From contig CAVQUN010000005.1 of assembly GCA_963716935.1 (NCBI GenBank), forward strand, positions 384,864-448,863: 64,000 nucleotides of DNA. Reading direction: 5' to 3'. The position numbers were made by a program, and so were the translations under genes. A model generated the notes under the pieces. It ran no database searches. It saw only the letters and a program-made list of their open reading frames with translations, and had not been told where the DNA came from. Shown here in pieces: positions 27,164-44,201 of this stretch. Positions within the stretch are counted from its first letter, which is position 1, and every line of letters begins with the position of its first letter. Source of the DNA: an uncultured Actinomycetes bacterium (GTDB taxonomy: Bacteria; Actinomycetota; UBA4738; HRBIN12).

Positions 27164-28765
27164 GTGTCGGAACGCAAGGTCGGGTCCGTGACCTACCAGG
27201 AGGTGGGCCAGGACTACTTCGACAAGCGCGGCCTTCGGCGCCACGCAGGTGTCTGGTCGCTGTGGGCCCTCGGCGTCGGGGCGGTCATCTCCGGCGAGTA
27301 CTACGGCTGGAACTTCGGCCTGGGAACCGGAGGATTCGGCGGCCTGCTGATCGCCGGTGCGCTGATGGCGATCATGTACTACGGCCTCGTCTACTCGATC
27401 GCCGAGATGTCCCCCGCGCTCCCGCACACGGGCGGTGCGTACTCGTTCGCGAGATCGGCCATGGGGCCGTGGGGCGGGTTCCTCACCGGCCTCGCGGAGA
27501 ACATGGAGTACGTGATCACGCCGGCGGTCGTCGTCGGCGCGATCGGGCTGCTCATGCAGGAGATCGTCGCGGGCCTGTTCAACGTCACCGGCGACCCGTG
27601 GTGGAACAGCCTCCCGATGTGGTGGGCGGTCTTCTACATCATCTTCGTCGGGATCAACATCCTCGGGATCGAGGCCACGATGCGATTCACGGTGGTCATC
27701 ACGGTCCTGTCCATCGCGGTCCTCGTGTTCTTCTTCCTTGCGGCGATCTTCTCGGGGAAGCTCGACTTCTCGCTGTGGACGAACATCCCCAAGGGCGGCG
27801 GCGAACCGATCCCCGGCGGAGGCGGACCGATGCTCCCGTTCGGGCTGAGCGGGATCTTCAAGTCCCTTCCCTTCGCGATCTGGTTCTTCCTCGCGATCGA
27901 GGAGGTGCCGCTCGCGGCGGAGGAGTCGATGGACCCGCGGCGCGACGTGCCCAAGGGATCCGTGTGGGCGATGCACACGCTGCTGATCGCGGCCATCCTC
28001 ACGCTGGTCTTCAACACGGCCCTGCCGGGAGGAGCGTTCCTCTACGGCCAGTCGGGGTTCCCGCTGCTGGATGGGCTGTTCGCGATCTTCGGCAAGGACA
28101 GCGCCACCGAGTTGCTCGGGCTCCTGTTCCTCATCGGCCTCGTGGCGAGCTTCTTCACGATCATCTACGCGTACGGCCGGAACACGTACTCACTGTCGCG
28201 CGCCGGCTACTTCCCGAAGTTCCTGTCGAAGACACACGGTCAGCGCAAGACACCCCATGTCGCCCTGATCGCCGGGGCGCTCGTCGGGTACGCGGTCTCG
28301 CTGCTCGTGTACATCCTGCAGCGTGAGGAGCTCGGCACGCAGATCGTCGCCGCGCTGCTGAACATGGCGGTATTCGCTGCGGTCATCTCGTACATCTTCC
28401 AGATGACGTCGTTCGTCCTGCTCCGCAGGAAGATGCCGAACATCGCGCGGCCCTACCGCAGCAAGTGGGGCGTTCCGGGTGCGGTCATCGCGGGACTGCT
28501 CGCGGCCGTGTCCCTCGTGGCGATCTTCCTGAACGAGGCCTACCGCCCCGGCGTGTATGGCGTGGCGATCTACTACGTCCTCGGGGTCCTGTACTTCGCG
28601 ATCGCCGGGAGGAACCGGCTCGTCCTCTCACCGGAAGAGGAGTTCGCGCTCACGCAGGGCGAGAAGGGCGTGCCGCAGGAGAGCTACGTGACGAGCGCGG
28701 CGGAGCAGGAGGCGATCCTGCGCGGCGAGAGTTCGAGCACCGGAACCCAGGCCCCGTCTGGGTAG
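27164..28765 (+). CDS. APC-superfamily amino acid/ethanolamine permease (EutP/Eat-like)
   Basis: 12-TM APC fold. HTGGAYSF-like motif (LPHTGGAYSFARSAMGPWGGF) typical of ethanolamine permeases. GTG 27164 behind RBS GGGAGG. Confidence 0.8.
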   Translation: MSERKVGSVTYQEVGQDYFDKRGLRRHAGVWSLWALGVGAVISGEYYGWNFGLGTGGFGGLLIAGALMAIMYYGLVYSIAEMSPALPHTGGAYSFARSAMGPWGGFLTGLAENMEYVITPAVVVGAIGLLMQEIVAGLFNVTGDPWWNSLPMWWAVFYIIFVGINILGIEATMRFTVVITVLSIAVLVFFFLAAIFSGKLDFSLWTNIPKGGGEPIPGGGGPMLPFGLSGIFKSLPFAIWFFLAIEEVPLAAEESMDPRRDVPKGSVWAMHTLLIAAILTLVFNTALPGGAFLYGQSGFPLLDGLFAIFGKDSATELLGLLFLIGLVASFFTIIYAYGRNTYSLSRAGYFPKFLSKTHGQRKTPHVALIAGALVGYAVSLLVYILQREELGTQIVAALLNMAVFAAVISYIFQMTSFVLLRRKMPNIARPYRSKWGVPGAVIAGLLAAVSLVAIFLNEAYRPGVYGVAIYYVLGVLYFAIAGRNRLVLSPEEEFALTQGEKGVPQESYVTSAAEQEAILRGESSSTGTQAPSG

Positions 28766-28791
28766 CGGGTCGCTCGATCCAACGCGCGGAC

Positions 28792-28824
28792 GGCGGGCCC
28801 CTCGGGGCCCGCCGTCTTCGTCTC
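28792..28824 (+). terminator. Putative intrinsic terminator after the permease gene
   Basis: GGCGGGCCC-CTCG-GGGCCCGCC hairpin followed by GTCTTCGTCTCC. The T-tract is weak for a high-GC genome. Confidence 0.4.
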
Positions 28825-28829
28825 CGCAC

Positions 28830-28864
28830 GTTTGACAGCCCGGACCGTCGGTGCACGTGATACG
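28830..28864 (+). promoter_or_regulatory. Conserved promoter-like motif GTTTGACA-N21-GATACG (copy 2) upstream of GS-like gene 1
   Basis: Same hexamers and same 21-nt spacing as copy 1. Followed by CGAACGAAC. Confidence 0.4.
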
Positions 28865-28890
28865 CGAACGAACTCACGAGGGGGAGCGAG

Positions 28891-30279
28891 ATGACGCACC
28901 CGCAGGGCATGCTCGACGCGAAGCACCTCGAGGAGCTCGCCGGCAAGGGCGAGATCGACACGGTTCTGTGCATGTTCACCGACCTGCAGGGCCGCTTCAT
29001 GGGCAAGCGCGTCGTCCCGCACTTCTTCCTCGAGGAGATCCTGGGCGAGGAGGGGCTGCACGCGTGCCTGTACCTGCTCGCCATCGACATGGAGATGGAG
29101 CCGCTGCCCGGATACCGCTACGCGAGCTGGGAGACCGGGTACGGCGACTTCCGCATGGTCCCGGACATGAGCACGCTTCGCTGGTGCCCCTGGCTCGAGA
29201 AGACCGTGATGGTGCTCTGCGACATCTTCGAGGAGGAGGAGAAGGACCAGGAGGTGGAGGTCGCGCCCCGGACGATCCTCAAGCACCAGATCGCGCGCGC
29301 GGCCGCGGCCGGCTACACGATCAAGACCGGCTCGGAGCTCGAGTTCTACCTGTTCCAGGATTCGTACCGCGAGGCCGCCGAGCGCGGCTATCGGGACCTG
29401 CGCCCCAGCTCCCCGTACATCATGGACTACCACATGCTCCAGACCACGCGGGACGAGTGGATCGTCCGGCAGATCCGCAACGCGATGCTGGGTGCGGGCA
29501 TCCCCGTCGAGTTCAGCAAGGGCGAGTTCGGCAAGGGCCAGCAGGAGATCAACATCACCTACTCGGACGCGCTCTCGAACGCCGACCACCACGCCCTGTA
29601 CAAGCACGGGGTCAAGGAGATCGCCGAGCTGAACGGCGTGGCGATCACCTTCATGGCGAAGTGGACGATGGCCGAGGCCGGCTCCAGCTGCCACCTGCAC
29701 TCGAGCGTGTGGAACGCCGAGGGGACCAAGAGCCTGATGTGGTCCGACGAGGGCGAGCACCACATGAGCGACACCTACCGCTGGTACCTCGGCGGCCTCA
29801 TGGCGTGCGCGCGCGAGATGGCCTGGATGTACGCGCCGTTCGTGAACTCCTACAAGCGCTACCAGCTGGGCTCGTGGGCGCCGACGGCGATCGTGTGGAG
29901 CCGGGACAACCGCACCTGCGGATTCCGCACCGTGGGCGAGCACACGGGCGCGCGGGTCGAGTGCCGGATCCCCGGCGCCGACGCGAACCCCTACCTGGCG
30001 TTCGCGGCGACGATCGCGGCCGGCCTGTGGGGGATCGAGAACAAGGTCGAGCCGCCCGAGATGTTCGTCGGCAACGCCTACGAGGCTAAGGACGTGGCCC
30101 GCGTCCCCTACTCGCTCCACGAGGCGATCGAGGCGTTCAAGGACTCGAAGGTGGCCCGGGAGGCGTTCGGGGACTTCGTCTTCGAGCACCTGCTGAACAC
30201 GGCGGTCCAGGAGCAGGTCATCTTCGACAACACGACCGTGACCGACTGGGAGCTCGCCCGGTACTTCGAGCGCGGCTGA
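28891..30279 (+). CDS. Glutamine synthetase-family protein 1 (gamma-glutamyl-amine synthetase, GlnA4/PuuA-like)
   Basis: GS catalytic-domain motifs (GSELEFYLF, KGEFGKGQQEIN, SWAPT...WSRDNRT, ADANPYLAFAA). Lacks the GlnA type I adenylylation loop. Confidence 0.88.
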   Translation: MTHPQGMLDAKHLEELAGKGEIDTVLCMFTDLQGRFMGKRVVPHFFLEEILGEEGLHACLYLLAIDMEMEPLPGYRYASWETGYGDFRMVPDMSTLRWCPWLEKTVMVLCDIFEEEEKDQEVEVAPRTILKHQIARAAAAGYTIKTGSELEFYLFQDSYREAAERGYRDLRPSSPYIMDYHMLQTTRDEWIVRQIRNAMLGAGIPVEFSKGEFGKGQQEINITYSDALSNADHHALYKHGVKEIAELNGVAITFMAKWTMAEAGSSCHLHSSVWNAEGTKSLMWSDEGEHHMSDTYRWYLGGLMACAREMAWMYAPFVNSYKRYQLGSWAPTAIVWSRDNRTCGFRTVGEHTGARVECRIPGADANPYLAFAATIAAGLWGIENKVEPPEMFVGNAYEAKDVARVPYSLHEAIEAFKDSKVAREAFGDFVFEHLLNTAVQEQVIFDNTTVTDWELARYFERG

Positions 30280-30304
30280 CCATAGGCCTCGAGAGACTCG
30301 TGAG

Positions 30305-31036
30305 ATGCGGCCCGTCCTGCTGATCGGGCACGATCAGAACGAGACCTTCGGGTTGGCCCCGGCCGGCCTCGGGGCTCGAGGGCTGGAGGTCTTTGAGCAC
30401 CGTGCCCCGTCGGGCGGCACGCTCCCTTCGATCGACGCGGTCTCCGGAGTGATCGTCTTCGGGGGATCGATGAACGTGGACATGGTCGACCGTTACCCCT
30501 TCCTCCTGGAGGAGCGAGGCTTCGTGCGCCGGGCCGTCGACGCGGGCGTTCCCCTTCTGGGGATCTGCCTCGGATCGCAGATGCTCGCGAGGGCGATGGG
30601 TCATGAGGTGTATGCGGCCGACGTGCGGGAGTTGGCGTTCAACGTCCTCCACGTGACGCCCGAGGCGGCCGCCGACCCGCTCATGTCCGTGTTCCGCGAC
30701 GGCGACATGGTCTTCCACTGGCACGAGGACACCTTCGAGCTCCCGGAGGGCGCGACGATCCTCGGCACCGGGGACGAAGTCCATCTCCAGGCGTTTCGGA
30801 TCGGCGACCACGCCTGGGGCATGCAGTTCCATTTCGAGATCGACCGGGCCGAGCTGGAGCTCTGGCTCCGGGCGGCTGGCGAGGACGTCGTGCAAGCGTG
30901 GGGGAAGACCACTGCCCAGGTCCTGGATGAGGCCGATCGTTTCTTGGCGACCCAGGAGGCGCGCGCCACCCGGCTCTTCGGCAGGTTCGCAGACGTGGTC
31001 CTGGCGGCGGGGAGAAATCGATCGGCCACCGGCTAG
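30305..31036 (+). CDS. Class I glutamine amidotransferase-like protein 1 (gamma-glutamyl-amide hydrolase candidate)
   Basis: GATase1 fold with nucleophile-elbow GICLGSQ and His/Glu in WHEDTFELP. Confidence 0.8.
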   Translation: MRPVLLIGHDQNETFGLAPAGLGARGLEVFEHRAPSGGTLPSIDAVSGVIVFGGSMNVDMVDRYPFLLEERGFVRRAVDAGVPLLGICLGSQMLARAMGHEVYAADVRELAFNVLHVTPEAAADPLMSVFRDGDMVFHWHEDTFELPEGATILGTGDEVHLQAFRIGDHAWGMQFHFEIDRAELELWLRAAGEDVVQAWGKTTAQVLDEADRFLATQEARATRLFGRFADVVLAAGRNRSATG

Positions 31037-31134
31037 ACAGCGACCGCACTCCGGTGCAAGGATTCGCGACGACGTGACCTGGTGGGGGTTCCCGCCTCGG
31101 CTCGCGGGGTCCCCCCGACAAGGGAGGGGGTCGC

Positions 31135-32721
31135 ATGGCTGCGCAGGCCGATGAGAAGGTGATGGTCGCCGAGAAGATCGCGCCGCTCCTGGTCGCGCGG
31201 TCCCTCACGGCCTTCGACCTGATCGTCATCTTCGTCGGGATCGTCCTGTTCATCACGAACTCCGCGGGCTTGCAGTTCGCTGGCCCGTCCGTGTTCGTCT
31301 TCTGGATCATCGCGTTCCTGACGTTCCTCCTCACCGGCGCCTTCATCACGGCGCATCTCGGGAGGATGTTCCCGGAGGAGGGGTCGCTGTACGTCTGGAC
31401 CCACAAGGTCCTCGGCCCGTTCTGGGGGTTCTTCGCCGGGTTCGTGGCCTGGTGGCCGGGACCGCTGGTGATGGTCGCGGCCGGCATCCTCGTCGTTGCC
31501 TTCGCCCAGCAGGTCGCCGCCTTCAGCGACAGCACGATCCTGACGGAGGCCTGGCAGCAGGGCCTGGTCATCCTGGCGGTCCTCTGGTTCGGAGCGATCC
31601 TGTCGCTGCTCCGGATGCGCCTCACCCAGAACTACGTGAACCTCCAGTTCTTCTTCTACGGCGCGGCGATCTTCGTGATGGGGCTCGCCGGCGTGGTCTG
31701 GCTGCTGAAGGGCAACCCGGCGGCGAACTCGTTCGCCACCGATCTGTGGAACCCGTGGCAGGGCGACAAGATCGTGCTCGGGCTGCCCGGGTACCTGACC
31801 TTCTACTCCTTCGCCGTCCTCGCCCTGCTCGGGATCGAGGTCCCGCTGAACATGGGCGTCGAGGTCGTAGGCGGCGAGGCCGCGATCAAGAAGTACCTGT
31901 TCTGGGGTTGCATCATCGTGATGGCCGCCTATCTCTGGACGACGTGGGGCAACATGGTGACCGTCTCCGTCGCCGAGGTGAACGGCACGACCGGAGGCGC
32001 GCAGGGGGTGGGCATCGCGATGGGTGACGCGCTCGGGATCGCCGTGGCGCTCGTCCTGATGTGGTTCTTCATCACGGCCTCGATGGTCTACAACTACTCG
32101 TTCGCCCGGCTGCTCTTCGTTTCCGGACTGGAGAAGCGGCTGCCCCCGATGATTGGTCGCGTCAACAAGAACAAGGTGCCGGCGAACGCCGTCCTGCTGC
32201 AGACGATCCTGGCGTCGATCATCACAGCCATCATCTTCTTCGGCATCGGGCAGGCCGGTGGCGGCGACCCGAACAAGCCATACTTTGCGCTCCTCGCAGG
32301 GCTCACCATCATCTGGTGCATCTCGACGGCTCTGCTGTTCCTCGACATCTTCTTCGCAAAGCGGGCCGATCCGGAGCGATTCGAGAAGGCGCGGAGGACG
32401 AACGAGGGGTTCCTCTACGCCTGCGGCGCGGTCGGCTTCCTGGCGAACCTCGCCGCGGTGTTCTTCATCTTCACCGGCACGTGGTATCCGCCGGGATTCC
32501 CGACCCTGGGAGAATGGAACACGTGGCTGGCAGTCATCGCGGTCGTTTCGATCGTCGCCGGGATCACGATCTGGTTCATCTCCGAGGGGATGCGCGGGGG
32601 CAAGTCGGATGTCCAGCTGATCGACGAGATCGCGGCTGAGGTCGGCGCCACGGTCGTAAACCTGAACGAGCCGACGACCGCTGGCACCTCGCCGGGCGGG
32701 GTTGGCGGTTCGCCCGCTTAG
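31135..32721 (+). CDS. APC-family amino acid/polyamine permease
   Basis: 12-13 predicted TM helices with APC-family composition. RBS GGGAGGGGG upstream of the ATG. Confidence 0.82.
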   Translation: MAAQADEKVMVAEKIAPLLVARSLTAFDLIVIFVGIVLFITNSAGLQFAGPSVFVFWIIAFLTFLLTGAFITAHLGRMFPEEGSLYVWTHKVLGPFWGFFAGFVAWWPGPLVMVAAGILVVAFAQQVAAFSDSTILTEAWQQGLVILAVLWFGAILSLLRMRLTQNYVNLQFFFYGAAIFVMGLAGVVWLLKGNPAANSFATDLWNPWQGDKIVLGLPGYLTFYSFAVLALLGIEVPLNMGVEVVGGEAAIKKYLFWGCIIVMAAYLWTTWGNMVTVSVAEVNGTTGGAQGVGIAMGDALGIAVALVLMWFFITASMVYNYSFARLLFVSGLEKRLPPMIGRVNKNKVPANAVLLQTILASIITAIIFFGIGQAGGGDPNKPYFALLAGLTIIWCISTALLFLDIFFAKRADPERFEKARRTNEGFLYACGAVGFLANLAAVFFIFTGTWYPPGFPTLGEWNTWLAVIAVVSIVAGITIWFISEGMRGGKSDVQLIDEIAAEVGATVVNLNEPTTAGTSPGGVGGSPA

Positions 32722-32783: not shown

Positions 32784-33959
32784 TCACTCGCCGCCGATGC
32801 CGTGCAACCGGCGGCAGCTTCCCGCCAGCACCAGCCTGCCCAGCCGCTTCGCGTCCGAGGCGGAGAGGTAGTCGCGCTTCACGAACCGGGTGAGGACGCG
32901 CTCGAGCGCCGATCGGGCGAGCAGGGCCGAGGCCCAGAACGCCTCGGGCTCGCCCGCCTCGTCCGAGCCGTAGAGGAGCTTCGCTGCGGGGACGGTTCCC
33001 ACGAGCATCTCGAGCGCCCACTCGACCTGTCCCCATCCCCACGGGATGAGCTCGGAGAGCTCGAGGTAGACGTTGGGGAGCACGGACGCGATGTACGCGG
33101 CCTCGCGAACCCACGGGTAGCCGGAGTGGACGAGGACGACCGGCTGATCCTGGACGTCGACGAGGAGCGGGAACAGCGACTGCGGCGTGGCGTGCGCGAG
33201 GTCGATGTCCGGGTCGCCACCGCCGCAGTGGAAGTGGAAGGGCCGATCGGTCGCCTTGGCGACCTCGAGCGTGCGCCTGATGAGGAAGTCGCGGACCGGC
33301 TTGGCGTGCTCGCGGCTCTCGCGCCAGTCGTCGGCGCGCCACTTGCCGAACGCCGCCTCCGCATCCGCCGGCGTCGGATCGCCGACGTCCAGACCGGTGC
33401 GGTACGCGACGATCGACTTGAACGCGACGCAGTTCGCGTCGCCGGCGGCCTCGCGGGCGTCGGCCTCGACGCCAGAGACCAGGTCGTCGAACGAGCCGTC
33501 GCGGCGTCGAAGGATCCACGGCTCCAGCCGCGCCACGCGGTGGACCGTCGCGCCGATCGTCCGCGCGAACTCGGCGGCCGGGATCGGGGGCTGCGGGAAG
33601 CCCTCGTCGGAGAGGACCGCGACGACGCCGGCGGCCTCGAGCAGCCCCTTCGTATAGGCGACGGCGTCGGCCTGCAGCGCCGCCTGGCGGGCAGCGGTCA
33701 CCGCCTCCCGGGTCGGTTCGCACCCGAGATGCCCGGCCAGCCACCGTCGCAGCGCGATCGCGAACACCGTCGAGTCCGTCATCGAGTCGGCGAGCGGCCA
33801 GAGATCCTCGTGCACGCGCGACGACGAGTGGAACGCCTCGCCCAGGAACATCGCGCGGGTGTCGAACCCCTCGGAAGGGCGTCCGACGAGGTCCTCGAGC
33901 CGGTACGGATGGGTGTGGGCGTCGACGACCTCCGCGCCCGAGAGCTTCACCTTCTTCAT
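32784..33959 (-). CDS. Amidohydrolase-2 (PF04909-like) metal-dependent TIM-barrel hydrolase
   Basis: HTHPY metal-binding start, HFHCGGG and HSGYPW motifs. Located inside a 988-aa spurious opposite-frame ORF. Confidence 0.78.
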   Translation of the reverse strand: MKKVKLSGAEVVDAHTHPYRLEDLVGRPSEGFDTRAMFLGEAFHSSSRVHEDLWPLADSMTDSTVFAIALRRWLAGHLGCEPTREAVTAARQAALQADAVAYTKGLLEAAGVVAVLSDEGFPQPPIPAAEFARTIGATVHRVARLEPWILRRRDGSFDDLVSGVEADAREAAGDANCVAFKSIVAYRTGLDVGDPTPADAEAAFGKWRADDWRESREHAKPVRDFLIRRTLEVAKATDRPFHFHCGGGDPDIDLAHATPQSLFPLLVDVQDQPVVLVHSGYPWVREAAYIASVLPNVYLELSELIPWGWGQVEWALEMLVGTVPAAKLLYGSDEAGEPEAFWASALLARSALERVLTRFVKRDYLSASDAKRLGRLVLAGSCRRLHGIGGE

Positions 33960-38318: not shown

Positions 38319-39037
38319 GCCCAACTCCCGCCGGCGCCGCCCCGTTGCGCGCGCTCGTCCTGCAGCACGAGGACCCCACGCCCCCCGGGCTCGTCACCGA
38401 ATGGCTCGCGTCCCACGAGGCCCTCGTCGAGACCTTCCGCATCGACCTGGAGGATCGCGAGCTCGATCCGACCGACTACGACCTCATCGTGTCGCTCGGT
38501 TCCGAGTTCGCCGCGTTCGACGACACGAAGCCGTTCGTGGGGCGCGAGGCCCGGCTCCTGCGTCGAGCCGTCGACGCCGACGTCCCCGTCCTCGGCCTCT
38601 GCTTCGGCGGCCAGATGCTCGCGCGGGTGCTCGGCGCCGACGTGTTCCGCTCCGAGGAGTCCGAGATCGGGTGGCTCCCCGTCCGCAGCACCGATCCCGA
38701 GCTCGTCCCCGAGGGCCCGTGGTTCCAGTGGCACTTCGACTCGTTCACCGCGCCGCCCGGGGCGAGCGTGATCGCCGAGTCCGACGTGGGCCCGCAGGCC
38801 TTCGTCGCGGGTCGCAGCCTCGGGCTGCAGTTCCACCCCGAGGTGACCCCGCAGATCATGGACGACTGGGTGCGCACGTACCGGCATGAGCTCGACGCCG
38901 ACGGGGTCGATCCCGACGCGCTGCTGGAGGAGACGCATCGGCGCGCCGACGAGAGCCGCCGGACGTCGTGGCAGCTCCTCGAGCGGTTCCACGACCGGAT
39001 CGCCGGCCTCGGCGCGCGGGAAGCGACGACGGCGTAG
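38314..39037 (+). CDS. Class I glutamine amidotransferase-like protein 2
   Basis: GTG 38314 in a GTGA overlap with the aminotransferase stop. GATase1 motifs GLCFGGQ and HFDSF...FHPE. The upstream 223 aa of the track ORF are artefact. Confidence 0.8.
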
Positions 39038-39051: not shown

Positions 39052-40414
39052 GTGCAGGCGACGATCCGATCCGAGCAGACGAGCGTGTTCCCCCGCTTCG
39101 CCGACCTCGCCTACCCGAACGTCGAGCGCGGCGACGGCGTCTGGCTCACGACGACCGACGGACGCCGGATCCTCGACGCCTGCTCCGGCGGCGCGATGGT
39201 GACGTGCCTCGGGTACGGGGTCCCCGAGGTGGTGGCGGCCGCGGCCGAGCAGGCCGAACGCATCGCGTACTTCTACAACCACCACTTCACGAGCGAGCCG
39301 CAGGAGCGATTCGCCGAGCGCCTGCTTGCGATCGCCGCCCCGGAGATGGCGCGAGCGCGATTCGTCTCGGGCGGCTCGGAGGCCAACGAGACCGCGCTGC
39401 AGCTGGCGCGCCTGTACCACGTCGAGCGGGGCGAGCCCGAGCGCTGGCGCGTGATCTCGCCGGCGCAGTCCTACCACGGCTCCACGATGGGGACGCTCGC
39501 GCTGAACGGGAGGCCCGCCCTGCAGGAGCCGTTCACTCCCTACCTCGCCGACCACCTGCACCTGCCGCCGTCGACGTCGCGCTTCGACCCGACCGGCGAG
39601 GCCGCGTTGCAGGAGCTGGATCGCCTCCTCGAACGGGCGGGCCCGGGGACGATCGCCGCCTTCCTCGCCGAGCCCGTGAGCGCGGCGGCGCTGCCCGGGT
39701 ACGCGCCGCCGGAGCGGTTCTGGCGAGGCCTCGCCGAGCGTCGCGAGCGGCACGGGTTCCTCGTCTGCCTCGACGAGGTGGTGACCGGCATGGGCCGCGT
39801 CGGGAGCTGGCTCGCGGCGCACCAGCTGCCGATCGAGCCCGACATCGTCGCGGTCGGCAAGGCGCTCGGCGCCGGGTACGCGCCGCTCGGCGCGGTGCTG
39901 TGCCGCCGGCACGTGTACGACGCCCTCGACCGGGGCTCGCGCGAGTTCGACCTCGGCCATACGTGGGACGGCGCCCCGCTGTCCACCGCGGTCGGGCTCG
40001 CGGTGCTCGACCAGCTCGAAAGCCGGGGCCTGGTCGACCGCGTGCGCGATCGCGGGCCGGCCCTGCGGCAGGAGCTCGCGTCGGCGCTCGCGGGCTTCGG
40101 CGTCGTCGGCGAGGTTCGCGGCCGCGGCTTCCTCCTCGGCGTCGAGCTCGTCGACCCGCGCGACGCGCACGTCGTTCCTGCCGGTCGAGCTCGACGCCGC
40201 GACGATCGTCGACGACCTCGCGCTCGAACACGGCCTCCTCGTCACGTCGACGCATCCCCAGGCGGACGGCTACGCGGGCGACCAGACGCTCCTCGCCCCC
40301 GCCTACACGAGCACCGACGCCGAGCTCGCCGAGATGGTCGAGCGGTTCGCCGCGACGATCGGCGAGGTCGAGCGCGTTCTCGGGCGGACGCTCTCCGGCA
40401 CGAACGCGCCATGA
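39052..40414 (+). pseudogene. Class III aminotransferase 2, apparently +1 frameshifted near 40165
   Basis: Paralogue of aminotransferase 1. Homology runs in frame 1 to ...GVELVDPRDA, then continues in frame 2 (SFLPVELDAATIVDDLALEHGLLVTSTHPQADGYAGDQTLLAPAYT...) to TGA 40412-40414. Frame 1 instead reads an Arg-rich tract into the next gene. Confidence 0.6.
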
Positions 40415-41700
40415 GCGAGCCCCTCGGCGAGTTCATCCTCCTCGGCATGCCCGACGTGAACGGCTCGCTCCGCGGCAAGGCGCTGCGACCCGAGGCGTTC
40501 GAGTCGGCGCTCCGGCACGGGACGGTGATGACGGACCTCCTGCTCGGCCTCGACCCGGTCGACACGCCGATCGCCGACTACGAGCGGTTCGGGATCCGAA
40601 CCGGCGCCGCGGACCTCGTCGTGCACCCGGATCCGGAGACGCTGCACCCGTTGCGATGGCGGCCCGGGTGGCGGGTCTGCCTCGCCACGCCGACCTGGCC
40701 CGACGGCTCGCCCTGCGAGCTCGCCTCGCGAGAGGTGCTACGCCACGTCCTCGACGGCGTCGCCGAGCTGGGGTTCGAGGTGCTCGCCGCGTTCGAGTAC
40801 GAGATCCGGATCTGGGACGCGAACGGCGATCCCCTGTCGAGCGGCATCAGCTACAGCCTCACGGAGATCGACCGCTACGCCGCGTTCGCGTCCGAGCTCG
40901 CCCCGGCGCTTCGAGAGCTCGGGATCGAGCTCTCGGCGGTCCACACCGAGGCCGGGCCGGGACTCCTCGAGCTGAACCTCACGCCCGGGCGCGGCCTTCG
41001 CGCCGCCGACGACGCCGCGTTGGTCAAGTTCGCCGCCAAGCAGCTCGCCGCGTCGATGGGGCTGCGCGCGAGCTTCCTCGCCAAGACGGTTCCGGGAGAG
41101 GAGGGATCGAGCGGCCATCTCCACGTCTCGCTGTGGAACGGCGACGCGAACGCCTTCGCCGCGTCGGACCTCACCCATCCTCTGCCGCCTGCCTTCGACG
41201 CCGCGGTGGCCGGCGTCCTCGACCACCTCCCGGCCGCGTCTTTGCTGCTGAACCCGACGATCAACTCGTACAAGCGGCTCGTCCCGGGATGGTTCGCGCC
41301 GATCAACGCAACCTGGGGGTTCGAGAACCGCTCGTGCGCCGTCCGCGTCATCCGGTCGACCCGGCCCGAGCTGTGGCGGTTCGAGTGCCGGCGCCCCGGC
41401 GCCGACGCCAACCCGTATCTCGCGCTCGCGGCGCTCGTCGCCTCGGTCGCCGACGGCCTCCGGCGCGGGGCGACGCCGCCGGCGCCCGTCGAGGGCGACG
41501 CCTACGCGCGCGACGACCTCCCGGAGCTGCCCGGCTCCCTCGAGGCGGCGCTCGGGGCCTTCGAGGCCGACGCGGTCCTGCGACGCGAGCTCGGCGAGCG
41601 GTTCGCCGAGTACTACGCCACGTCCCGGGCCTGGGAGCTCAAGGCGTGGCGCGAGACGGTCACCGACTGGGAGCGCGAGCGCTACGACCGCGCGGTGTAG
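40411..41700 (+). CDS. Glutamine synthetase-family protein 4
   Basis: ATG 40411 overlaps the frame-2 stop of the upstream aminotransferase (ATGA). GS catalytic motifs (AAFEYEIRIW, GHLHVSLWN, ADANPYLALAA). Confidence 0.85.
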   Translation: MSEPLGEFILLGMPDVNGSLRGKALRPEAFESALRHGTVMTDLLLGLDPVDTPIADYERFGIRTGAADLVVHPDPETLHPLRWRPGWRVCLATPTWPDGSPCELASREVLRHVLDGVAELGFEVLAAFEYEIRIWDANGDPLSSGISYSLTEIDRYAAFASELAPALRELGIELSAVHTEAGPGLLELNLTPGRGLRAADDAALVKFAAKQLAASMGLRASFLAKTVPGEEGSSGHLHVSLWNGDANAFAASDLTHPLPPAFDAAVAGVLDHLPAASLLLNPTINSYKRLVPGWFAPINATWGFENRSCAVRVIRSTRPELWRFECRRPGADANPYLALAALVASVADGLRRGATPPAPVEGDAYARDDLPELPGSLEAALGAFEADAVLRRELGERFAEYYATSRAWELKAWRETVTDWERERYDRAV

Positions 41701-41706
41701 GACCCG

Positions 41707-43005
41707 ATGACCCCGTACCGGCCGCTCGTCGCCGTCGTCGCCTACCACCTCGCCGACGATCGGGTGCCCCGATGGCCGCATGGCGGCTACGGCGTCCCCG
41801 GTCCCTACCTCGACTGCCTCCGGCGGGCCGGCGCCCGCACCGCCATCCTGTCCCCCGGGGAAACGGGATCGCCGCAGGAGCTCCTCGATCCCTTCGACGC
41901 GCTCCTGCTCGTCGGGGGCGGCGACGTCGATCCCGAGCGGTACGCGCAGGCGCCGGGCGAGCACGTGTACGGCGTCGAGGAAGACCGCGACGCGTTCGAG
42001 ATCGACCTCCTGCGAGCCGCCGACGCGATAGGCGTGCCCACCCTGTGTATCTGCCGCGGCATGCAGGTCATGAACGTCGCGTTCGGTGGCACGCTCCTGC
42101 AGCATCTCCCGGTGGTACCGGGCCTCCTCGAGCACGGCGTGCCGGTCCAGGACATCCAGTCGCTGCACGACGTGCGGACGGACCCCGGGAGCCGCCTGCG
42201 GGCGACGGCCGGCGTCGAGACGCTGACGTGCTCGTCGCACCACCATCAGGGCGTCGATCGCGTCGGGGAGGGGTTGCGGGCCACGGGGTGGAGCGAGGAC
42301 GGGCTCGTCGAGGCGATCGAGCGCGAGCCGGGGGGCGGGGCGGACGATCGCCCGTTCGAGGCCGGATGGATGGTGGGCGTGCAGTGGCATCCGGAGGACA
42401 CGGCCGACGGCGACGCCGCACAGCAATCGCTGTTCGACGCGCTCGCGGTCCTCGGCCACGTTCGCGGCACGCGCGCCCGGCCCGGCCTTCGCGCCGGACG
42501 GAGCCGCGCCTACGAGCTGGTCGAGCCCGATCCGGCGTGGGCGGCGATGTTCGAAGAGGAGGCGGATCGGATCCGGGCCGCGCTCGGGCCGGTGGCCGTT
42601 CGCGTGGACCACGTCGGCTCGACGGCGGTTCCCGGGCTCGCGGCCAAGCCGACCATCGACATCCAGGTGTCGGTCGACGCGATGGTGCCGCGCGCCCGCT
42701 TCGTCGAGCCGCTCATCGCCCTTGGGTACGAGTTCGTCGTCGACCCCACCGACACCGAGCACCAGTACCTCCGGCGGGAGATCGACGGCGTGCGCAAGCA
42801 CCAGATTCACGTCTGCGCGGCGGGCGGCGAGTGGGAGGCTCGGCACCTGCGGTTTCGAGACCACCTTCGAGCCCATCCCGAGGACGCCGCCGCATACGAG
42901 GAGCTGAAACGGCGGCTCGTGCGCGAGCACCCGAACGACGTCATGACGTACGTCGACGGCAAGACGCCGTTCATCCGCCGGATCGAGGCGCTCGCCGACC
43001 CGTAG
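41707..43005 (+). CDS. Fusion protein: peptidase C26/class I GATase (PuuD-like gamma-glutamyl hydrolase) + GrpB-family domain
   Basis: N-terminal half has the C26 triad context (LCICRGMQ nucleophile, HHQG, WHPE). C-terminal half has GrpB motifs (VDHVGSTAVPGLAAKPTIDIQV, HQIHVC, FRDHLRAHPE). Confidence 0.8.
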   Translation: MTPYRPLVAVVAYHLADDRVPRWPHGGYGVPGPYLDCLRRAGARTAILSPGETGSPQELLDPFDALLLVGGGDVDPERYAQAPGEHVYGVEEDRDAFEIDLLRAADAIGVPTLCICRGMQVMNVAFGGTLLQHLPVVPGLLEHGVPVQDIQSLHDVRTDPGSRLRATAGVETLTCSSHHHQGVDRVGEGLRATGWSEDGLVEAIEREPGGGADDRPFEAGWMVGVQWHPEDTADGDAAQQSLFDALAVLGHVRGTRARPGLRAGRSRAYELVEPDPAWAAMFEEEADRIRAALGPVAVRVDHVGSTAVPGLAAKPTIDIQVSVDAMVPRARFVEPLIALGYEFVVDPTDTEHQYLRREIDGVRKHQIHVCAAGGEWEARHLRFRDHLRAHPEDAAAYEELKRRLVREHPNDVMTYVDGKTPFIRRIEALADP

Positions 43006-43097
43006 CGAGCCCGGCGCGCAAGCCCCGGCGCTCCCCCATCCGCCGAGTCGCCGAGGCTACGCTGTCCGTTCCGGGTGACGGCGAGGGCGGAGCTGCG

Positions 43098-44201
43098 ATG
43101 GGCGAGTTGAGAATCGTTCGGGCCGAAGGGGATCCCAACGCGCGCGGGCAGCAGATCGGGCGCGAGCTCCGCGACCTCCTCAACGAGTCCGTCGACTTCT
43201 ACCACCGCTACCTGTCTCGTCGCGGGGTCAGCTCGCAAGGGCTCCAGGACGTCCTCACGCCGTATCTCGTCGCCGCCGAGGGCCAGTTCCCCGCGTTCAT
43301 GGCGACGCTGAAGGGGATGTCCGTCGGCGCGATGGTCCCGGTCCTGGAGCTGTTCGCGATCAACGCGTTCGAGGAGCTGGAGCCGATGCTCGAGACGCCC
43401 GAGGGGGCGCTGCGATTCCTTCAGCGGAAGGAGGGCTACCTCGAGCCGCCGTCGCCGCCGATCGAACGCTGCTCCAGCTTCACGGTGACCGGACCCGACG
43501 CGACGATCCTCGCGCACAACGAGCACTGGCTGGCCGGCGACCTCGGCAACATCGCGCTGGTCGTGGACATCCCCGACGACCGCCCCGTTCGCGTGGCCTC
43601 GCCGACCGTCGTCTGCTGCCTGCCGGCCGTGGGGATGAACAGTCACGGCGCCGCGCAGGGCATCGGGTCGCTGACGGCCTCCGACGACGGCGTCGGCGTG
43701 CCGCGCGTGCTGGTGTCCCGGCACTCATTGGAGGCGATGGACCGGGGGGACGCGGTCGCGCGAGCGGGGCTGCCGTCTCGTGCGGGCGGGTACGGGCACA
43801 CCTTCGCGTTCCCCGGCGGCGACGCCTTCGTCGTGGAGACCACCGCGACCGCGCTCGCGGTCGTCGACGAGCCGGCGATCCACACGAACCACTACCTGGA
43901 CCCGGGCCTCGCGCAGCTCGGGCCCGAGCCCTCGGCGGGCAGCCGGGCTCGGTACGCCCGGATCGAGCAGCTGCTCGCCGAGCGATCCCCGCGAACGGTG
44001 CCCGAGGTGATGGATATCCTGCGCGACCACGGCTCTTCTCCTCAGGCGATCTGCCTGCACCCTGACCCCGCCGAGGGCGACGAGGCCTCGGCCGTGCTGT
44101 TCTCGATGGTCGCGGAGCTGGAGGAGGGCAGGATGTGGGTCGCCGCCGGCAACCCGTGCGAGAACGAGTACGAGGAGATCGACCTCGCCGGCGTGCTCTG
44201 A
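43098..44201 (+). CDS. Peptidase C45-family Ntn hydrolase / acyl-CoA:6-APA acyltransferase-like protein
   Basis: ATG 43098. Putative autoproteolytic nucleophile (ERCSSF) and a NEHW block resembling the C45 NEDW region. It is the C-terminal portion of a 1771-aa artefactual ORF. Confidence 0.65.
   Translation: MGELRIVRAEGDPNARGQQIGRELRDLLNESVDFYHRYLSRRGVSSQGLQDVLTPYLVAAEGQFPAFMATLKGMSVGAMVPVLELFAINAFEELEPMLETPEGALRFLQRKEGYLEPPSPPIERCSSFTVTGPDATILAHNEHWLAGDLGNIALVVDIPDDRPVRVASPTVVCCLPAVGMNSHGAAQGIGSLTASDDGVGVPRVLVSRHSLEAMDRGDAVARAGLPSRAGGYGHTFAFPGGDAFVVETTATALAVVDEPAIHTNHYLDPGLAQLGPEPSAGSRARYARIEQLLAERSPRTVPEVMDILRDHGSSPQAICLHPDPAEGDEASAVLFSMVAELEEGRMWVAAGNPCENEYEEIDLAGVL

What the first reader, a model, noticed from the sequence alone, without database searches (positions are those of the whole stretch)
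27164..44201. Roughly 17 kb gamma-glutamylation island: four GS-like paralogues, three GATase/C26 hydrolases, two omega-aminotransferases, an Amidohydro_2 protein, a C45 Ntn-hydrolase and two APC permeases
The sequence shows four glutamine-synthetase-family genes (28891-30279, 33975-35430, 35387-36715, 40411-41700) interleaved with three class-I amidotransferase-like hydrolases, two class-III aminotransferases, two APC permeases and an opine/peptide-type ABC importer immediately downstream. Established knowledge: GS-like proteins without the adenylylation loop act as gamma-glutamyl-amine synthetases. Examples are PuuA in E. coli, PauA1-7 in Pseudomonas and GlnA2-4 in Streptomyces. PuuD/PauD-type GATase hydrolases release glutamate. 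SpuC-type aminotransferases oxidise the distal amine. Inference: this is a multi-substrate gamma-glutamylation pathway for polyamines and/or monoamines. It carries components that do not belong to the classical puu/pau scheme: Amidohydro_2, a C45 acyltransferase, a GrpB fusion, and tandem convergent GS genes. It may therefore encode a new variant, for example processing of a gamma-glutamylated secondary amine or amide, or a biosynthetic rather than catabolic use.
Basis: partly seen in the sequence, partly recalled or inferred. Interest (0 to 1): 0.8.

Follow-up and report, generated by a model that had tools for sequence, protein, structure and literature searches.

The report
Composite gamma-glutamyl amine-catabolism gene cluster
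An uncultured soil actinobacterium has gathered, in one variable stretch of chromosome, several separable gene modules that most likely import amines (ethanolamine-type and polyamine-type) and break them down by first tagging them with glutamate; each module resembles a system already known in Streptomyces, Pseudomonas or E. coli, so this is an unusually dense mosaic, not a new kind of pathway.

Summary
The region holds four glutamine-synthetase-family genes, three class-I amidotransferase-type hydrolases (one fused to GrpB), two class-III aminotransferases, an Amidohydro_2 gene, a C45 Ntn-hydrolase, two APC permeases and a Dpp/Opp-type ABC importer.

Corrections:
- The second aminotransferase carries a 1-nt insertion.
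- The two adjacent GS genes are tandem, not convergent.

None of the four GS proteins looks like a true GlnA. All keep the metal, ATP and glutamate residues. All replace the ammonium-flap Glu327 with Trp or Phe, lack the adenylylation loop, and score below the curated GlnA cut-off.

The "island" is a mosaic of four modules that occur apart in related genomes:
- A: ethanolamine permease, GlnA4-like ligase and GATase.
- B: Amidohydro_2 with a GlnA3/PA5508-like ligase (the split FluG pair), plus a further ligase.
- C: aminotransferase, GATase, aminotransferase and ligase. B and C stand alone with an aldehyde dehydrogenase and a permease in four genomes.
- D: GATase, PuuD-like C26(-GrpB), C45 or S66 peptidase, and the ABC importer. 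It is conserved in about 80 species-level genomes of uncultured Actinomycetota.

Amidohydro_2 is therefore a known partner. C45 and GrpB belong to a separate, uncharacterised module.

Verdict: a catabolic gamma-glutamylation locus, a new variant of a known kind, of moderate interest.

The parts
20201..21820 (-). Aldehyde dehydrogenase (betaine-/aminobutyraldehyde-DH-like). Probable distal part of module A.
   Evidence: Pfam Aldedh, E = 1e-166. 38% identical to E. coli PuuC. NCBIfam BADH 491 bits and aminobutyraldehyde DH 442 bits, both below cut-off. Lies beside SDR-APC1-GS1 in relatives L025, L045, L057 and L060.
21684..22493 (+). Short-chain dehydrogenase. Probable distal part of module A.
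   Evidence: Pfam adh_short_C2. 57% identical to the SDR that sits between the GS1-like ligase and the eat ethanolamine permease in Thermomicrobium roseum. Directly upstream of APC1-GS1 in 18 related loci.
26241..26977 (-). GntR/UTRA regulator, frameshifted as assembled. Heads the DeoC-ZnADH-FGGY sugar operon and is probably not part of the amine pathway.
   Evidence: Pfam UTRA. Split over two frames relative to the 245-aa orthologue in L084. Co-directional with DeoC, ADH and FGGY.
27164..28765 (+). APC1: ethanolamine-permease-like APC transporter (module A).
   Evidence: TIGR00908 ethanolamine permease 366 bits, cut-off 381.75. 51% identical to the annotated eat gene of T. roseum.
28891..30279 (+). 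GS1: GlnA4/ethanolamine-type gamma-glutamyl-amine ligase (module A).
   Evidence: Gln-synt_C, E = 3e-93. PDB 11zs 1e-142 and 5dm3 4e-122. 57% identical to the T. roseum ligase linked to SDR and eat, and 38% to IpuC. Flap Glu327 is replaced by Trp.
30305..31036 (+). GAT1: type-1 glutamine-amidotransferase-like hydrolase (module A).
   Evidence: Pfam GATase. NCBIfam PRK07053 162 bits, below cut-off. Cys nucleophile GICLGSQ and an HFE motif are present. Only 39-55% identical to the GATase that precedes C26 in relatives.
31135..32721 (+). APC2: APC-family permease that travels with modules B and C.
   Evidence: AA_permease_2, E = 3e-31. Adjacent to Amidohydro_2 in L001, L003, L084, L085, L088 and L089.
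32784..33959 (-). Amh2: Amidohydro_2 metal hydrolase, partner of GS2 (module B; split FluG N-domain type).
   Evidence: PF04909. Best PDB match is 2qpx, E = 2e-22, which I equate with the L. paracasei LSEI_0440 used in PMC6478659 (identity of entry and protein is from memory, not tool-checked). HxH, H and D motifs are present. At least 78% identical across 120 clusters.
33975..35420 (-). GS2: GlnA3/PA5508 (PauA7)-type gamma-glutamyl-amine ligase (module B). TTG start; overlaps the end of GS3.
   Evidence: Gln-synt_N_2 plus Gln-synt_C. PDB 4hpp, E = 7e-70. GGputSyn model 335 bits, cut-off 650. 46-49% identical to Streptomyces ligases, one of which is followed by an Amidohydro_2 gene.
35387..36715 (-). 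GS3: GS-like ligase of an uncharacterised subfamily (module B).
   Evidence: Gln-synt_C, E = 1e-87. Best annotated relative is 45%, on a Rhizobium plasmid next to a GATase and an ABC importer. Flap Glu is replaced by Phe.
36927..38318 (+). AT1: class-III omega-aminotransferase (module C).
   Evidence: Aminotran_3, E = 3e-76. Solved relatives include putrescine aminotransferase 6gwi and GABA transaminase 5kr3. 30% identical to PuuE.
38315..39037 (+). GAT2: type-1 GATase-like hydrolase. Its start overlaps the AT1 stop (GTGA) (module C).
   Evidence: Pfam GATase. GLCFGGQ and HPE motifs are present.
39052..40413 (+). AT2: second class-III aminotransferase, about 56-60% identical to AT1. Interrupted by a 1-nt insertion at about 40168-40172 (module C).
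   Evidence: Aminotran_3, E = 1e-73, truncated at model position 360/403. The C-terminus continues in the +1 frame. One extra base relative to nine relatives. Intact (446-457 aa) in L001, L084 and L085.
40411..41700 (+). GS4: GS-like ligase of a small, uncharacterised subfamily (module C).
   Evidence: Gln-synt_C, E = 1e-87. At most 38% identical to IpuC or any annotated ligase examined. Only about 7 full-length 50%-identity clusters at 44-71% identity in 1.84 billion representatives. Flap Glu is replaced by Phe.
41707..43005 (+). C26-GrpB: PuuD/SpuA-type gamma-glutamyl hydrolase fused to a GrpB (UPF0157, nucleotidyltransferase-fold) domain (module D). Starts 6 nt after GS4.
   Evidence: Peptidase_C26, E = 1e-48, and GrpB, E = 2e-50. 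Invariant Cys116, His228 and Glu230. AF2 model pTM 0.83; best folds are SpuA and PuuD (TM 0.77-0.83) and GrpB 2nrk (TM 0.86). The fusion is complete in 71 of 81 related loci.
43098..44201 (+). C45 autoproteolytic Cys-Ntn acyltransferase/hydrolase (module D).
   Evidence: PF03417. NF040521 164.7 bits against a cut-off of 85. AF2 pTM 0.85; isopenicillin-N acyltransferase TM 0.77-0.80, then NAAA and acid ceramidase. Invariant Cys125.
44428..50361 (+). Dpp/Opp-type ABC importer (module D): SBP_bac_5 44428-46311, permeases 46343-47326 and 47328-48305, ATPases 48302-49291 and about 49288-50361.
   Evidence: Pfam. The SBP is below cut-off for every curated substrate model, including Opp4A, NikA and GsiB. 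Present within 9 kb downstream of C26 in 56-58 of 59 loci.

Best explanation
The region is a catabolic locus for using amines as nitrogen and carbon sources through gamma-glutamylation. It was assembled by accretion of separable modules in a variable stretch of an uncultured soil actinobacterial chromosome.

Module A comprises APC1, GS1 and GAT1, together with the SDR and aldehyde dehydrogenase 5-7 kb upstream. It is the GlnA4-type ethanolamine route:
1. Import of the amine.
2. ATP-dependent gamma-glutamylation.
3. Oxidation of the alcohol to the acid.
4. Release of glutamate plus glycine by the amidotransferase-like hydrolase.

Modules B and C comprise APC2, Amh2-GS2-GS3, and AT1-GAT2-AT2-GS4. 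In other genomes they also carry an amino-aldehyde-type dehydrogenase. They form a polyamine/diamine route with three ligases of different specificity. In this route an omega-transaminase, not a PuuB-type oxidase, converts the free amine of the gamma-glutamyl-amine to an aldehyde. A GATase or C26 hydrolase then removes glutamate, and the second transaminase handles the resulting omega-amino acid.

Module D comprises C26-GrpB, C45 and a Dpp-type ABC importer. It is an older resident of this chromosomal site. It most likely imports and deconjugates gamma-glutamyl-type or other unusual amides or peptides. In this genome it is transcriptionally fused behind module C and can serve as its PuuD-type hydrolase.

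Shown by the analysis: gene content, family membership, catalytic residues, loss of the GlnA ammonium-flap residue, and modular synteny. Inferred: substrates, order of reactions, and the transaminase-for-oxidase substitution.
For: - Families and catalytic motifs.
- All four ligases keep Glu129/131/212/220/357, His269/271 and Arg321/339/344. All replace flap Glu327 by Trp, Trp, Phe and Phe (PuuA has Tyr) and lack the NLYDLPPEE adenylylation loop. None reaches the curated GlnA cut-off.
- Module A: the permease scores 366 against 381.75 bits for ethanolamine permease. The trio of GS1-like ligase, SDR and eat permease is adjacent in Thermomicrobium roseum. The Streptomyces GlnA4 cluster has the same parts list: SDR, aldehyde DH, GlnA4, permease and amidotransferase (PMC6529630).
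- Module B: GS2 best matches PA5508 (4hpp) and Amh2 best matches 2qpx. This pair is SCO6962/SCO6961 and the two halves of FluG (PMC9397018; PMC6478659). S. rimosus has the same adjacency.
- Modules B and C stand alone with an aldehyde DH and APC2 between BacA and TldD/PmbA in L085, L088, L089 and L090. That aldehyde DH is amino-aldehyde-DH-like.
- No PuuB homologue is present in 64 kb. The transaminases have putrescine and GABA transaminases among their solved relatives.
- Module D: GATase directly upstream of C26 in 64 of 76 loci, and the ABC importer downstream in 56-58 of 59. The C26 fold matches SpuA and PuuD.
- Operon fusion: 6-nt gap between GS4 and C26.
- Accretion: L099 and L069 have the same flanks without modules A-C or B-C respectively.
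Against: - There are no biochemical data for any protein of this lineage.
- GS3 and GS4 are at most 45% and 38% identical to anything annotated, so their substrates are open.
- In the window, modules B and C lack their own aldehyde dehydrogenase.
- AT2 is frameshifted as assembled. If the frameshift is real, the route is crippled here.
- GS-like ligases also act on aromatic amines (PA5508, aniline and naphthylamine systems) and in biosynthesis, so polyamines are not the only candidates.
- The function of Amidohydro_2 in the GlnA3/FluG pair is unknown even in model organisms.
- The module D substrate is unknown. Its SBP is only 30-47% conserved among relatives.
Confidence: 0.6

Rival explanations
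1. One integrated pathway. All 17 kb plus the ABC importer act on a single complex substrate, for example a long polyamine such as spermine or spermidine, or an imported gamma-glutamyl or opine-like conjugate. That substrate would need several successive glutamylation, transamination and hydrolysis rounds.
For: - Modules C and D form one transcription unit here, with a 6-nt gap between GS4 and C26.
- The B-C-D order recurs in L001, L003, L004, L017, L084 and L098. Module C lies near module D in about 10 of 81 loci, in varying orientations.
Against: - Modules B and C occur without A or D in four genomes.
- Module D occurs without B and C in most of the 81 loci, and without A, B and C in L099.
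- Module A occurs alone in another phylum.
- Module identities to the close relative L084 are mosaic, from 63% to 97%.
Confidence: 0.15
2. Module D, and perhaps the whole neighbourhood, serves salvage of gamma-linked or D-amino-acid peptides such as peptidoglycan stem peptides, glutathione-like thiols or poly-gamma-glutamate fragments. The Dpp-type system imports the peptide. C26 cuts the gamma-glutamyl bond. C45, S66 or creatininase-family enzymes trim the remainder.
For: - The gene after C26 alternates between C45 (32 of 76 loci) and an S66 LD-carboxypeptidase-like gene (15 of 76). The latter matches Pfam S66 N and C domains and weakly resembles muramoyltetrapeptide carboxypeptidase.
- A creatininase-family amidase is often present as well.
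- The importer is of the peptide/nickel/glutathione SBP_bac_5 class.
- The nearest fold to C45 cleaves a delta-aminoadipoyl amide, a homologue of a gamma-glutamyl amide (plus established knowledge of isopenicillin-N acyltransferase).
Against: - No curated SBP or peptidase model reaches its cut-off.
- The ligase most often found within 9 kb upstream is the ethanolamine-type GS1, in 29 of 47 loci, which suggests amine rather than peptide metabolism.
- C26 enzymes with known substrates act on gamma-glutamyl-GABA or folate-type conjugates.
Confidence: 0.15
3. Biosynthetic use. Glutamylation serves as a transient protecting or activating group in the synthesis of a small nitrogenous natural product.
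For: GS-like ligases and GATase-like hydrolases are used this way in some natural-product pathways (general knowledge; Walker and van der Donk are cited in PMC6478659). GS3 and GS4 belong to uncharacterised subfamilies.
Against: - There are no NRPS, PKS, oxygenase, methyltransferase or exporter genes in or next to the region.
- There are three importers.
- The flanks are housekeeping genes.
- The modules match catabolic clusters in model organisms.
Confidence: 0.04
4. Redundant nitrogen assimilation. The four proteins are true glutamine synthetases.
For: All carry complete Gln-synt_C domains with metal, ATP and glutamate residues. GS3 and GS4 have archaeal and Gram-positive GS as their best solved matches.
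Against: - Flap Glu327 is replaced by an aromatic residue in all four, and the adenylylation loop is absent.
- TIGR00653 GlnA scores are 198-254 bits against a cut-off of 429.
- The genes are embedded with permeases, hydrolases and transaminases.
Confidence: 0.02

Closest known systems
Streptomyces ethanolamine utilisation cluster around glnA4 (SCO1610-SCO1615 and orthologues; Krysenko et al. 2019, PMC6529630), and the predicted Chromohalobacter salexigens gamma-glutamyl ethanolamine route
   Same: The parts list matches: GS-like ligase, ethanolamine/amino-acid permease, glutamine-amidotransferase-like hydrolase, short-chain dehydrogenase and aldehyde dehydrogenase. GS1's strongest solved relatives are 11zs and 5dm3. 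That 5dm3 is the C. salexigens enzyme is from my memory and was not tool-checked.
   Different: The regulator is different or absent. In the window the SDR and aldehyde DH are separated from the ligase by a sugar operon. Orthology to SCO1613 itself could not be tested because no reference sequence was available.
GlnA3 (SCO6962) with amidohydrolase SCO6961; P. aeruginosa PA5508/PauA7; fungal FluG (Amidohydro_2 fused to a GS-like domain)
   Same: An Amidohydro_2 gene lies directly next to a PA5508-type ligase. The best solved matches are 2qpx and 4hpp, the two bacterial proteins shown to replace the two halves of FluG (PMC6478659). S. rimosus shows the same adjacency.
   Different: GS2 is only 46-49% identical to the Streptomyces proteins. 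Here the pair is extended by a further overlapping ligase (GS3) and is divergently coupled to an aminotransferase operon.
E. coli Puu and P. aeruginosa Pau/Spu gamma-glutamylation pathways for putrescine and polyamines
   Same: The logic is shared: an APC importer, a GS-like ligase, an aldehyde dehydrogenase (38% to PuuC), a C26 gamma-glutamyl hydrolase (31.5% to PuuD; SpuA and PuuD are the best folds) and a class-III transaminase (30% to PuuE). As with PauA1-7, there are multiple ligase paralogues.
   Different: There is no PuuB/PauB FAD oxidase. Two omega-transaminases sit inside the operon instead. The ligases are only 25-29% identical to PuuA and below the GGputSyn cut-off. The hydrolase is fused to GrpB.
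Isopropylamine (ipu) clusters of Paenarthrobacter and Microbacterium plasmids
   Same: These clusters combine a GS-like ligase (IpuC, 37-38% to GS1 and GS4), both a type-1 GATase and a C26 hydrolase, an APC permease, an SDR and aldehyde dehydrogenases.
   Different: The ipu clusters contain a P450 monooxygenase system and no aminotransferases. The window has no oxygenase.
Isopenicillin-N acyltransferase and bacterial C45 proenzymes
   Same: The family model is matched over its full length and the fold match has TM 0.77-0.80. The nucleophile Cys is conserved.
   Different: Sequence identity is 18-20%. The context is bacterial and catabolic, and the substrate is unknown.
GrpB/UPF0157 domain (E. 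faecalis GrpB 2nrk; C-terminal domain of mycobacterial CoaE 6n39)
   Same: The fold matches at TM 0.86 with 36% identity. As in CoaE, the domain is fused C-terminally to an enzyme.
   Different: The fusion partner here is a gamma-glutamyl hydrolase. The domain is dispensable in close relatives, since C26 occurs alone in L069, L084, L098 and L099. No function is established for GrpB.

Membership tests
Gamma-glutamyl-amine ligases (GS-like: PuuA, PauA, GlnA2-4, IpuC) | Gln-synt_C catalytic domain with conserved metal (E129, E131, E212, E220, H269, E357), ATP (H271, R344) and glutamate (R321) residues | tested here: met
   All are invariant across GS1-4, E. coli GlnA and PuuA. Pfam E-values are 1e-84 to 3e-93.
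Gamma-glutamyl-amine ligases (GS-like: PuuA, PauA, GlnA2-4, IpuC) | Loss of the ammonium-site residues of true GS (flap Glu327; Asp50, Tyr179) | tested here: met
   Glu327 is replaced by Trp, Trp, Phe and Phe in GS1-4. Ten reference GS-like ligases have Trp, Phe or Tyr, and GlnA has Glu. Asp50 and Tyr179 are inconclusive because the alignment is unreliable in those loops.
Gamma-glutamyl-amine ligases (GS-like: PuuA, PauA, GlnA2-4, IpuC) | No adenylylation loop (Tyr397 motif) | tested here: met
   The NLYDLPPEE motif is absent. The loop is shortened by 3 residues in GS1, GS3 and GS4 and is different in GS2.
Gamma-glutamyl-amine ligases (GS-like: PuuA, PauA, GlnA2-4, IpuC) | ATP-dependent glutamylation of an amine other than ammonia | not testable with these tools
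   Requires enzyme assays.
True glutamine synthetase GlnA (type I) | Score at or above the curated equivalog cut-off (TIGR00653, 429 bits) | tested here: not met
   Scores are 239, 198, 254 and 216 bits for GS1-4.
Gamma-glutamylputrescine synthetase PuuA (NF045547) | Score at or above the curated equivalog cut-off (650 bits) | tested here: not met
   Scores are 196, 335, 238 and 215 bits. Identity to E. coli PuuA is 25-29%.
E. coli Puu pathway | FAD-dependent gamma-glutamylputrescine oxidase PuuB | tested here: not met
   No BLASTP hit of PuuB to any protein of the region or its neighbours. No DAO-family gene was found in the window scans.
E. coli Puu pathway | PuuD-type C26 gamma-glutamyl-GABA hydrolase with a Cys-His-Glu triad | tested here: met
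   Peptidase_C26, E = 1e-48. Cys116, His228 and Glu230 are invariant. SpuA and PuuD are the best folds. The protein is below the PRK11366 equivalog cut-off (68 against 266 bits).
GlnA4-type ethanolamine utilisation cluster | GS-like ligase adjacent to an ethanolamine permease and an amidotransferase-like hydrolase, with an SDR and an aldehyde dehydrogenase | tested here: met
   APC1-GS1-GAT1 are contiguous. The SDR and aldehyde DH lie 5-7 kb upstream, and adjacent in relatives. The comparison is with PMC6529630 and T. roseum.
GlnA4-type ethanolamine utilisation cluster | Orthology of the ligase to SCO1613 | not tested
   No SCO1613 sequence was available in the tools. Only indirect evidence exists (PDB 11zs and 5dm3, and context).
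GlnA3/FluG-type pair | Amidohydro_2 protein (LSEI_0440/SCO6961 type) encoded next to, or fused with, a PA5508/SCO6962-type ligase | tested here: met
   Amh2 and GS2 are 15 nt apart on the same strand. Best PDB matches are 2qpx and 4hpp. The adjacency is also present in S. rimosus and is described in the literature.
C45 autoproteolytic acyltransferase/hydrolase | Full-length match above the curated cut-off, an Ntn fold and a conserved nucleophile Cys | tested here: met
   NF040521 164.7 bits against a cut-off of 85, over model positions 1-313. Isopenicillin-N acyltransferase TM 0.77-0.80. Cys125 is invariant in 23 sequences. Autoproteolysis itself is not testable.
GrpB (PF04229) | Domain match above the gathering score and a GrpB fold | tested here: met
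   171 bits against a gathering score of 25.5. 2nrk TM 0.86. The family has no established function.

The most novel reading that the evidence does not exclude
Two things here could be new.

1. Modules B and C may encode an oxidase-independent, transaminase-driven gamma-glutamylation route. It would use three ligases, two of which (GS3 and GS4) belong to small uncharacterised subfamilies and may have substrates outside the known ethanolamine and polyamine set.

2. The module of GATase, C26(-GrpB), C45 or S66 peptidase, creatininase and Dpp-type importer is conserved in at least 80 species-level genomes of an uncultured soil Actinomycetota lineage. It may be an undescribed system for import and deconjugation of gamma-glutamyl- or aminoadipoyl-type amides or peptides. 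The GrpB nucleotidyltransferase-fold domain may add a regulatory or catalytic step.
Probability: 0.3. Interest if true: 0.55.

Novelty: new variant of a known kind. Interest (0 to 1): 0.38.

Why it matters
Gamma-glutamylation is a main route by which soil actinomycetes detoxify and consume polyamines and ethanolamine. It has been studied in only a few cultured models.

This locus shows that an abundant uncultured soil lineage stacks the known modules side by side. It appears to replace the oxidase step with transaminases, and it carries two ligase subfamilies and a widely conserved hydrolase/importer module with no known substrate.

The locus gives concrete, cheaply testable enzyme candidates:
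- four ligases;
- four hydrolases;
- two transaminases;
- one binding protein.

These could extend the substrate map of GS-like enzymes and may give the GrpB and bacterial C45 families a first physiological context.

It does not overturn current understanding.

Tried and rejected
- Exact-sequence look-ups of the window's own C26-GrpB protein and its 100% match P0001 found no contig. The source genome therefore could not be read beyond the window.
- The Amidohydro_2 and C45 homologue searches returned only close relatives of at least 70% identity. They gave no reach to cultured organisms.
- I tested whether the overlapping GS3-GS2 tandem is a conserved pair outside the lineage. The Rhizobium GS3-like gene is followed by an overlapping 494-aa ORF, but that ORF is not GS2-like. 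The idea was rejected.
- The Streptomyces NBC_00184 GS2-like gene has no adjacent amidohydrolase. The S. rimosus one does.
- The promoter and terminator scan was at or below shuffle expectation.
- Rfam and tRNA scans of the whole window found nothing.
- My assignment by eye of the upstream acyl-CoA dehydrogenase in relatives as glutaryl-CoA dehydrogenase was not confirmed by NCBIfam and is not used.
- I considered whether the GntR/UTRA regulator controls the island and rejected it. It is co-directional with the DeoC-ADH-FGGY sugar operon and moves with that operon in relatives.
- A literature search found no functional study of GrpB.

Full report
**1. What is in the sequence.**

The window is 66-74% G+C, so raw ORF lists are unreliable. 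Genes were therefore called from third-position GC and checked with Pfam and NCBIfam.

From left to right the region contains the following.
- A GntR/UTRA regulator at 26241-26977(-), which heads a DeoC/Zn-ADH/FGGY sugar operon.
- APC1 27164-28765, GS1 28891-30279, GAT1 30305-31036 and APC2 31135-32721, all on the plus strand.
- Amh2 32784-33959, GS2 33975-35420 and GS3 35387-36715, on the minus strand.
- Divergently from a 212-bp intergenic region: AT1 36927-38318, GAT2 38315-39037, AT2 39052-40413, GS4 40411-41700, C26-GrpB 41707-43005 and C45 43098-44201.
- A five-gene Dpp/Opp-type ABC importer at 44428-50361.

There are three corrections.
- AT2 is broken by a single extra base at about 40168-40172 relative to nine related loci. 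As assembled, this creates a 910-codon read-through ORF into GS4.
- GS2 and GS3 are tandem on one strand, not convergent.
- Only the C26 domain is PuuD-like. GAT1 and GAT2 are GuaA-like type-1 GATases.

A second frameshift lies in the GntR gene. Closely related long-read MAG contigs contain many broken genes. Assembly error is therefore the more likely explanation for both frameshifts.

**2. Are the GS-like proteins glutamine synthetases?**

No.
- In an alignment with E. coli GlnA and PuuA, all four keep the metal, ATP and glutamate ligands.
- The flap residue Glu327, which closes the ammonium site, is Trp, Trp, Phe and Phe in GS1-4. It is Tyr in PuuA, and Trp, Phe or Tyr in ten other GS-like ligases examined.
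- The adenylylation loop is absent.
- None reaches the curated cut-offs for GlnA, type III GS or gamma-glutamylputrescine synthetase.
- The paralogues are only 26-31% identical to each other, so they are ancient, not recent, duplicates.

**3. Which known ligases do they resemble?**

- *GS1.* Its strongest solved matches are 11zs (1e-142, about 57% identity) and 5dm3 (4e-122). It is 57% identical to a Thermomicrobium roseum ligase that sits next to an SDR and the annotated eat ethanolamine permease. Those neighbours are 57% and 51% identical to the window's SDR (21684-22493) and APC1. APC1 itself scores just under the ethanolamine permease cut-off, 366 against 381.75 bits.
- *The GlnA4 comparison.* The Streptomyces GlnA4 cluster has the same parts: SDR, aldehyde dehydrogenase, GlnA4, permease and amidotransferase (PMC6529630).
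- *GS2.* Its best match is PA5508/PauA7 (4hpp, 7e-70). Its neighbour Amh2 best matches 2qpx. These are the two bacterial proteins that functionally replace the two halves of fungal FluG. The same pairing is SCO6961-SCO6962 (GlnA3) in S. coelicolor (PMC6478659; PMC9397018). S. rimosus carries a GS2-like gene (46%) followed by an Amh2-like gene.
- *GS3.* Its best annotated relative (45%) lies on a Rhizobium plasmid beside a GATase and an ABC importer.
- *GS4.* It is at most 38% identical to any annotated ligase examined, with IpuC-type ligases nearest. In a search of 1.84 billion 50%-identity cluster representatives, only about seven full-length clusters lie at 44-71% identity before the list falls to 41% or less.

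**4. Gene-neighbourhood comparison.**

A profile of the C26-GrpB fusion retrieved 80 species-representative loci, nearly all titled as uncultured Actinomycetota/Actinomycetes MAGs. Further contigs came from exact-protein look-ups. The window's proteins were mapped onto them by tblastn. Four separable units emerge.

- *Module D.* This is the constant core. A GATase lies immediately upstream of C26 in 64 of 76 loci. The ABC importer lies within 9 kb downstream in 56-58 of 59. The next gene is C45 in 32 of 76 loci or an S66 LD-carboxypeptidase-like gene in 15 of 76. A creatininase-family gene is often present. The GrpB fusion is complete in 71 of 81 loci.
- *Module A.* GS1 lies within 9 kb upstream in 29 of 47 loci. 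It is usually preceded by the SDR and a divergent aldehyde dehydrogenase.
- *Modules B and C.* These lie next to D in only about 10 loci. In four genomes they stand alone as aldehyde DH | GS4-AT2-GAT2-AT1 <> GS3-GS2-Amh2 | APC2, between BacA and TldD/PmbA.
- *Accretion at this site.* L069 has the window's order without B and C. L099 has the window's outer flanks (G6PD through the CDP-alcohol transferase on the left; the unknown protein and the CoA-transferase on the right) with only module D between them.

The window therefore carries about 23 kb of accreted material at a variable site. The full A-B-C-D order recurs only in a small subclade (L084; L098, L001 and L003 for B-C-D). So co-localisation of the whole island is not broadly conserved, while each module is strongly conserved.

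**5. Mechanism.**

*Module A (inferred by analogy to GlnA4).*
1. Import of the amine.
2. Glutamylation.
3. Two oxidations, by the SDR and the aldehyde DH.
4. Hydrolysis by GAT1.

*Modules B and C.* The self-contained standalone form has a permease, three ligases, two omega-transaminases, a GATase, an amino-aldehyde-type dehydrogenase and the FluG-type amidohydrolase. This matches the Puu/Pau logic except that no PuuB/PauB oxidase exists anywhere in the window. The transaminases have putrescine and GABA transaminases among their solved relatives.

I therefore infer that one transaminase oxidises the distal amine of the gamma-glutamyl-diamine and the other handles the released omega-amino acid. 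This substitution is an inference and has not been shown.

*Module D.* The C26 domain has an invariant Cys-His-Glu triad, and SpuA and PuuD are its nearest folds. In this genome its gene starts 6 nt after GS4, so it is probably co-expressed with module C and can act as its PuuD.
- The GrpB domain matches E. faecalis GrpB and the C-terminal domain of mycobacterial CoaE.
- GrpB has no established function.
- GrpB is missing from close relatives (L069, L084, L098, L099), so it is not essential to the module.

*C45.* It is a bona fide C45 proenzyme. Its nearest fold is isopenicillin-N acyltransferase, followed by NAAA and acid ceramidase. That suggests cleavage of an acyl-amide, possibly a gamma-glutamyl- or aminoadipoyl-type one. 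This too is inference.

**6. Comparison with what is known, and novelty.**

- Module A is a member of the GlnA4-type ethanolamine system by parts list and context.
- The Amh2-GS2 pair is a member of the GlnA3/FluG-type pairing.
- The C26 domain is a PuuD/SpuA-type hydrolase.
- Co-occurrence of type-1 GATase and C26 hydrolase with a GS-like ligase is already seen in ipu clusters.

The features that differ from described systems are as follows.
- Two transaminases sit inside the operon, and no oxidase is present.
- Three further ligases are stacked here, two of them from uncharacterised subfamilies.
- The C26-GrpB fusion.
- The conserved but unstudied GATase/C26/C45-or-S66/ABC module.

No evidence favours a biosynthetic role. 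I rate the finding a new variant of a known kind, with moderate interest.

**7. Limits.**

- No reference sequences for SCO1613, SCO2241, SCO6962 or PauA1-7 were available. Clade assignment rests on solved-structure matches, context and a small neighbour-joining tree without bootstrap support.
- The identity of 5dm3 as the C. salexigens enzyme, and of 2qpx as LSEI_0440, rests on my memory together with the FluG paper's description.
- All substrate assignments are inferences.

Noticed in passing
window 40160-40180: There is a single-base insertion in the second aminotransferase relative to nine related loci. As assembled, it produces a 910-codon ORF (38968-41700) that joins most of AT2 to GS4.
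   Followed up: yes
window 26890-26980: There is a second frameshift, in the GntR/UTRA regulator. Residues 1-28 and 25-245 of the L084 orthologue map to different frames. Two indels within 14 kb, together with many broken genes in related long-read MAG contigs (L084, L090, L098), suggest assembly error rather than pseudogenes.
   Followed up: partly
window 18.5-41.7 kb, compared with L099 and L069: L099 has the window's outer flanks (sigma-70/DUF6596, GNAT, PALP, G6PD and CDP-alcohol transferase on the left; the unknown protein and CoA-transferase on the right) with only GATase-C26-C45-creatininase-ABC between them. The window therefore carries about 23 kb of extra genes at a variable chromosomal site. 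L069 has the window's order minus modules B and C.
   Followed up: yes
related loci, position directly after the C26(-GrpB) gene: The gene after C26 alternates between a C45 Ntn hydrolase (32 of 76 loci) and an S66 LD-carboxypeptidase-like gene (15 of 76). Both are present within 9 kb in 10 of 59 loci, and a creatininase-family amidase often follows. In L001 an unknown 456-aa gene and a 1046-aa guanylate-cyclase/AAA/TPR regulator are inserted there.
   Followed up: partly
window about 50380-51030 (-) and 51142-52431 (+): An unknown protein of about 220 aa with no Pfam match, followed by a family-III CoA-transferase (succinate-glutarate CoA-transferase-like, 401 bits, below cut-off), lies downstream of the ABC genes in 44 and 40 related loci respectively. 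In many relatives an acyl-CoA dehydrogenase, EtfAB and an Fe-S oxidoreductase lie just upstream of the GATase-C26 pair. In the window the acyl-CoA dehydrogenase orthologue (77%) is at 8492-9601.
   Followed up: partly
window 28000-32000 and 44000-48000: G+C falls to 0.666-0.678, against about 0.72 elsewhere. These stretches cover the permease, GS1 and GAT1 genes and the ABC binding-protein and permease genes. GAT1 is only 39-55% identical to the GATase at the equivalent position in relatives, although its neighbours are 74-87% identical.
   Followed up: no
L098 4081-7209: AT1, GAT2 and part of AT2 are called there as one 1042-aa product (Aminotran_3-GATase-Aminotran_3). This is probably an assembly artefact at the overlapping stop and start codons, but a real fusion was not excluded.
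   Followed up: no
P0361: A 4424-aa predicted protein with six GS-like stretches is the top-scoring representative for GS4. P0375 (2757 aa) and P0378 (1356 aa) also carry three stretches each. Their origin and reality were not examined.
   Followed up: no
window 53262-57026 (-): A MoxR-type AAA ATPase (55617-57026), a small unknown ORF and a VWA-domain protein (53262-55190) form a typical MoxR-VWA pair. It is unrelated to the finding.
   Followed up: no
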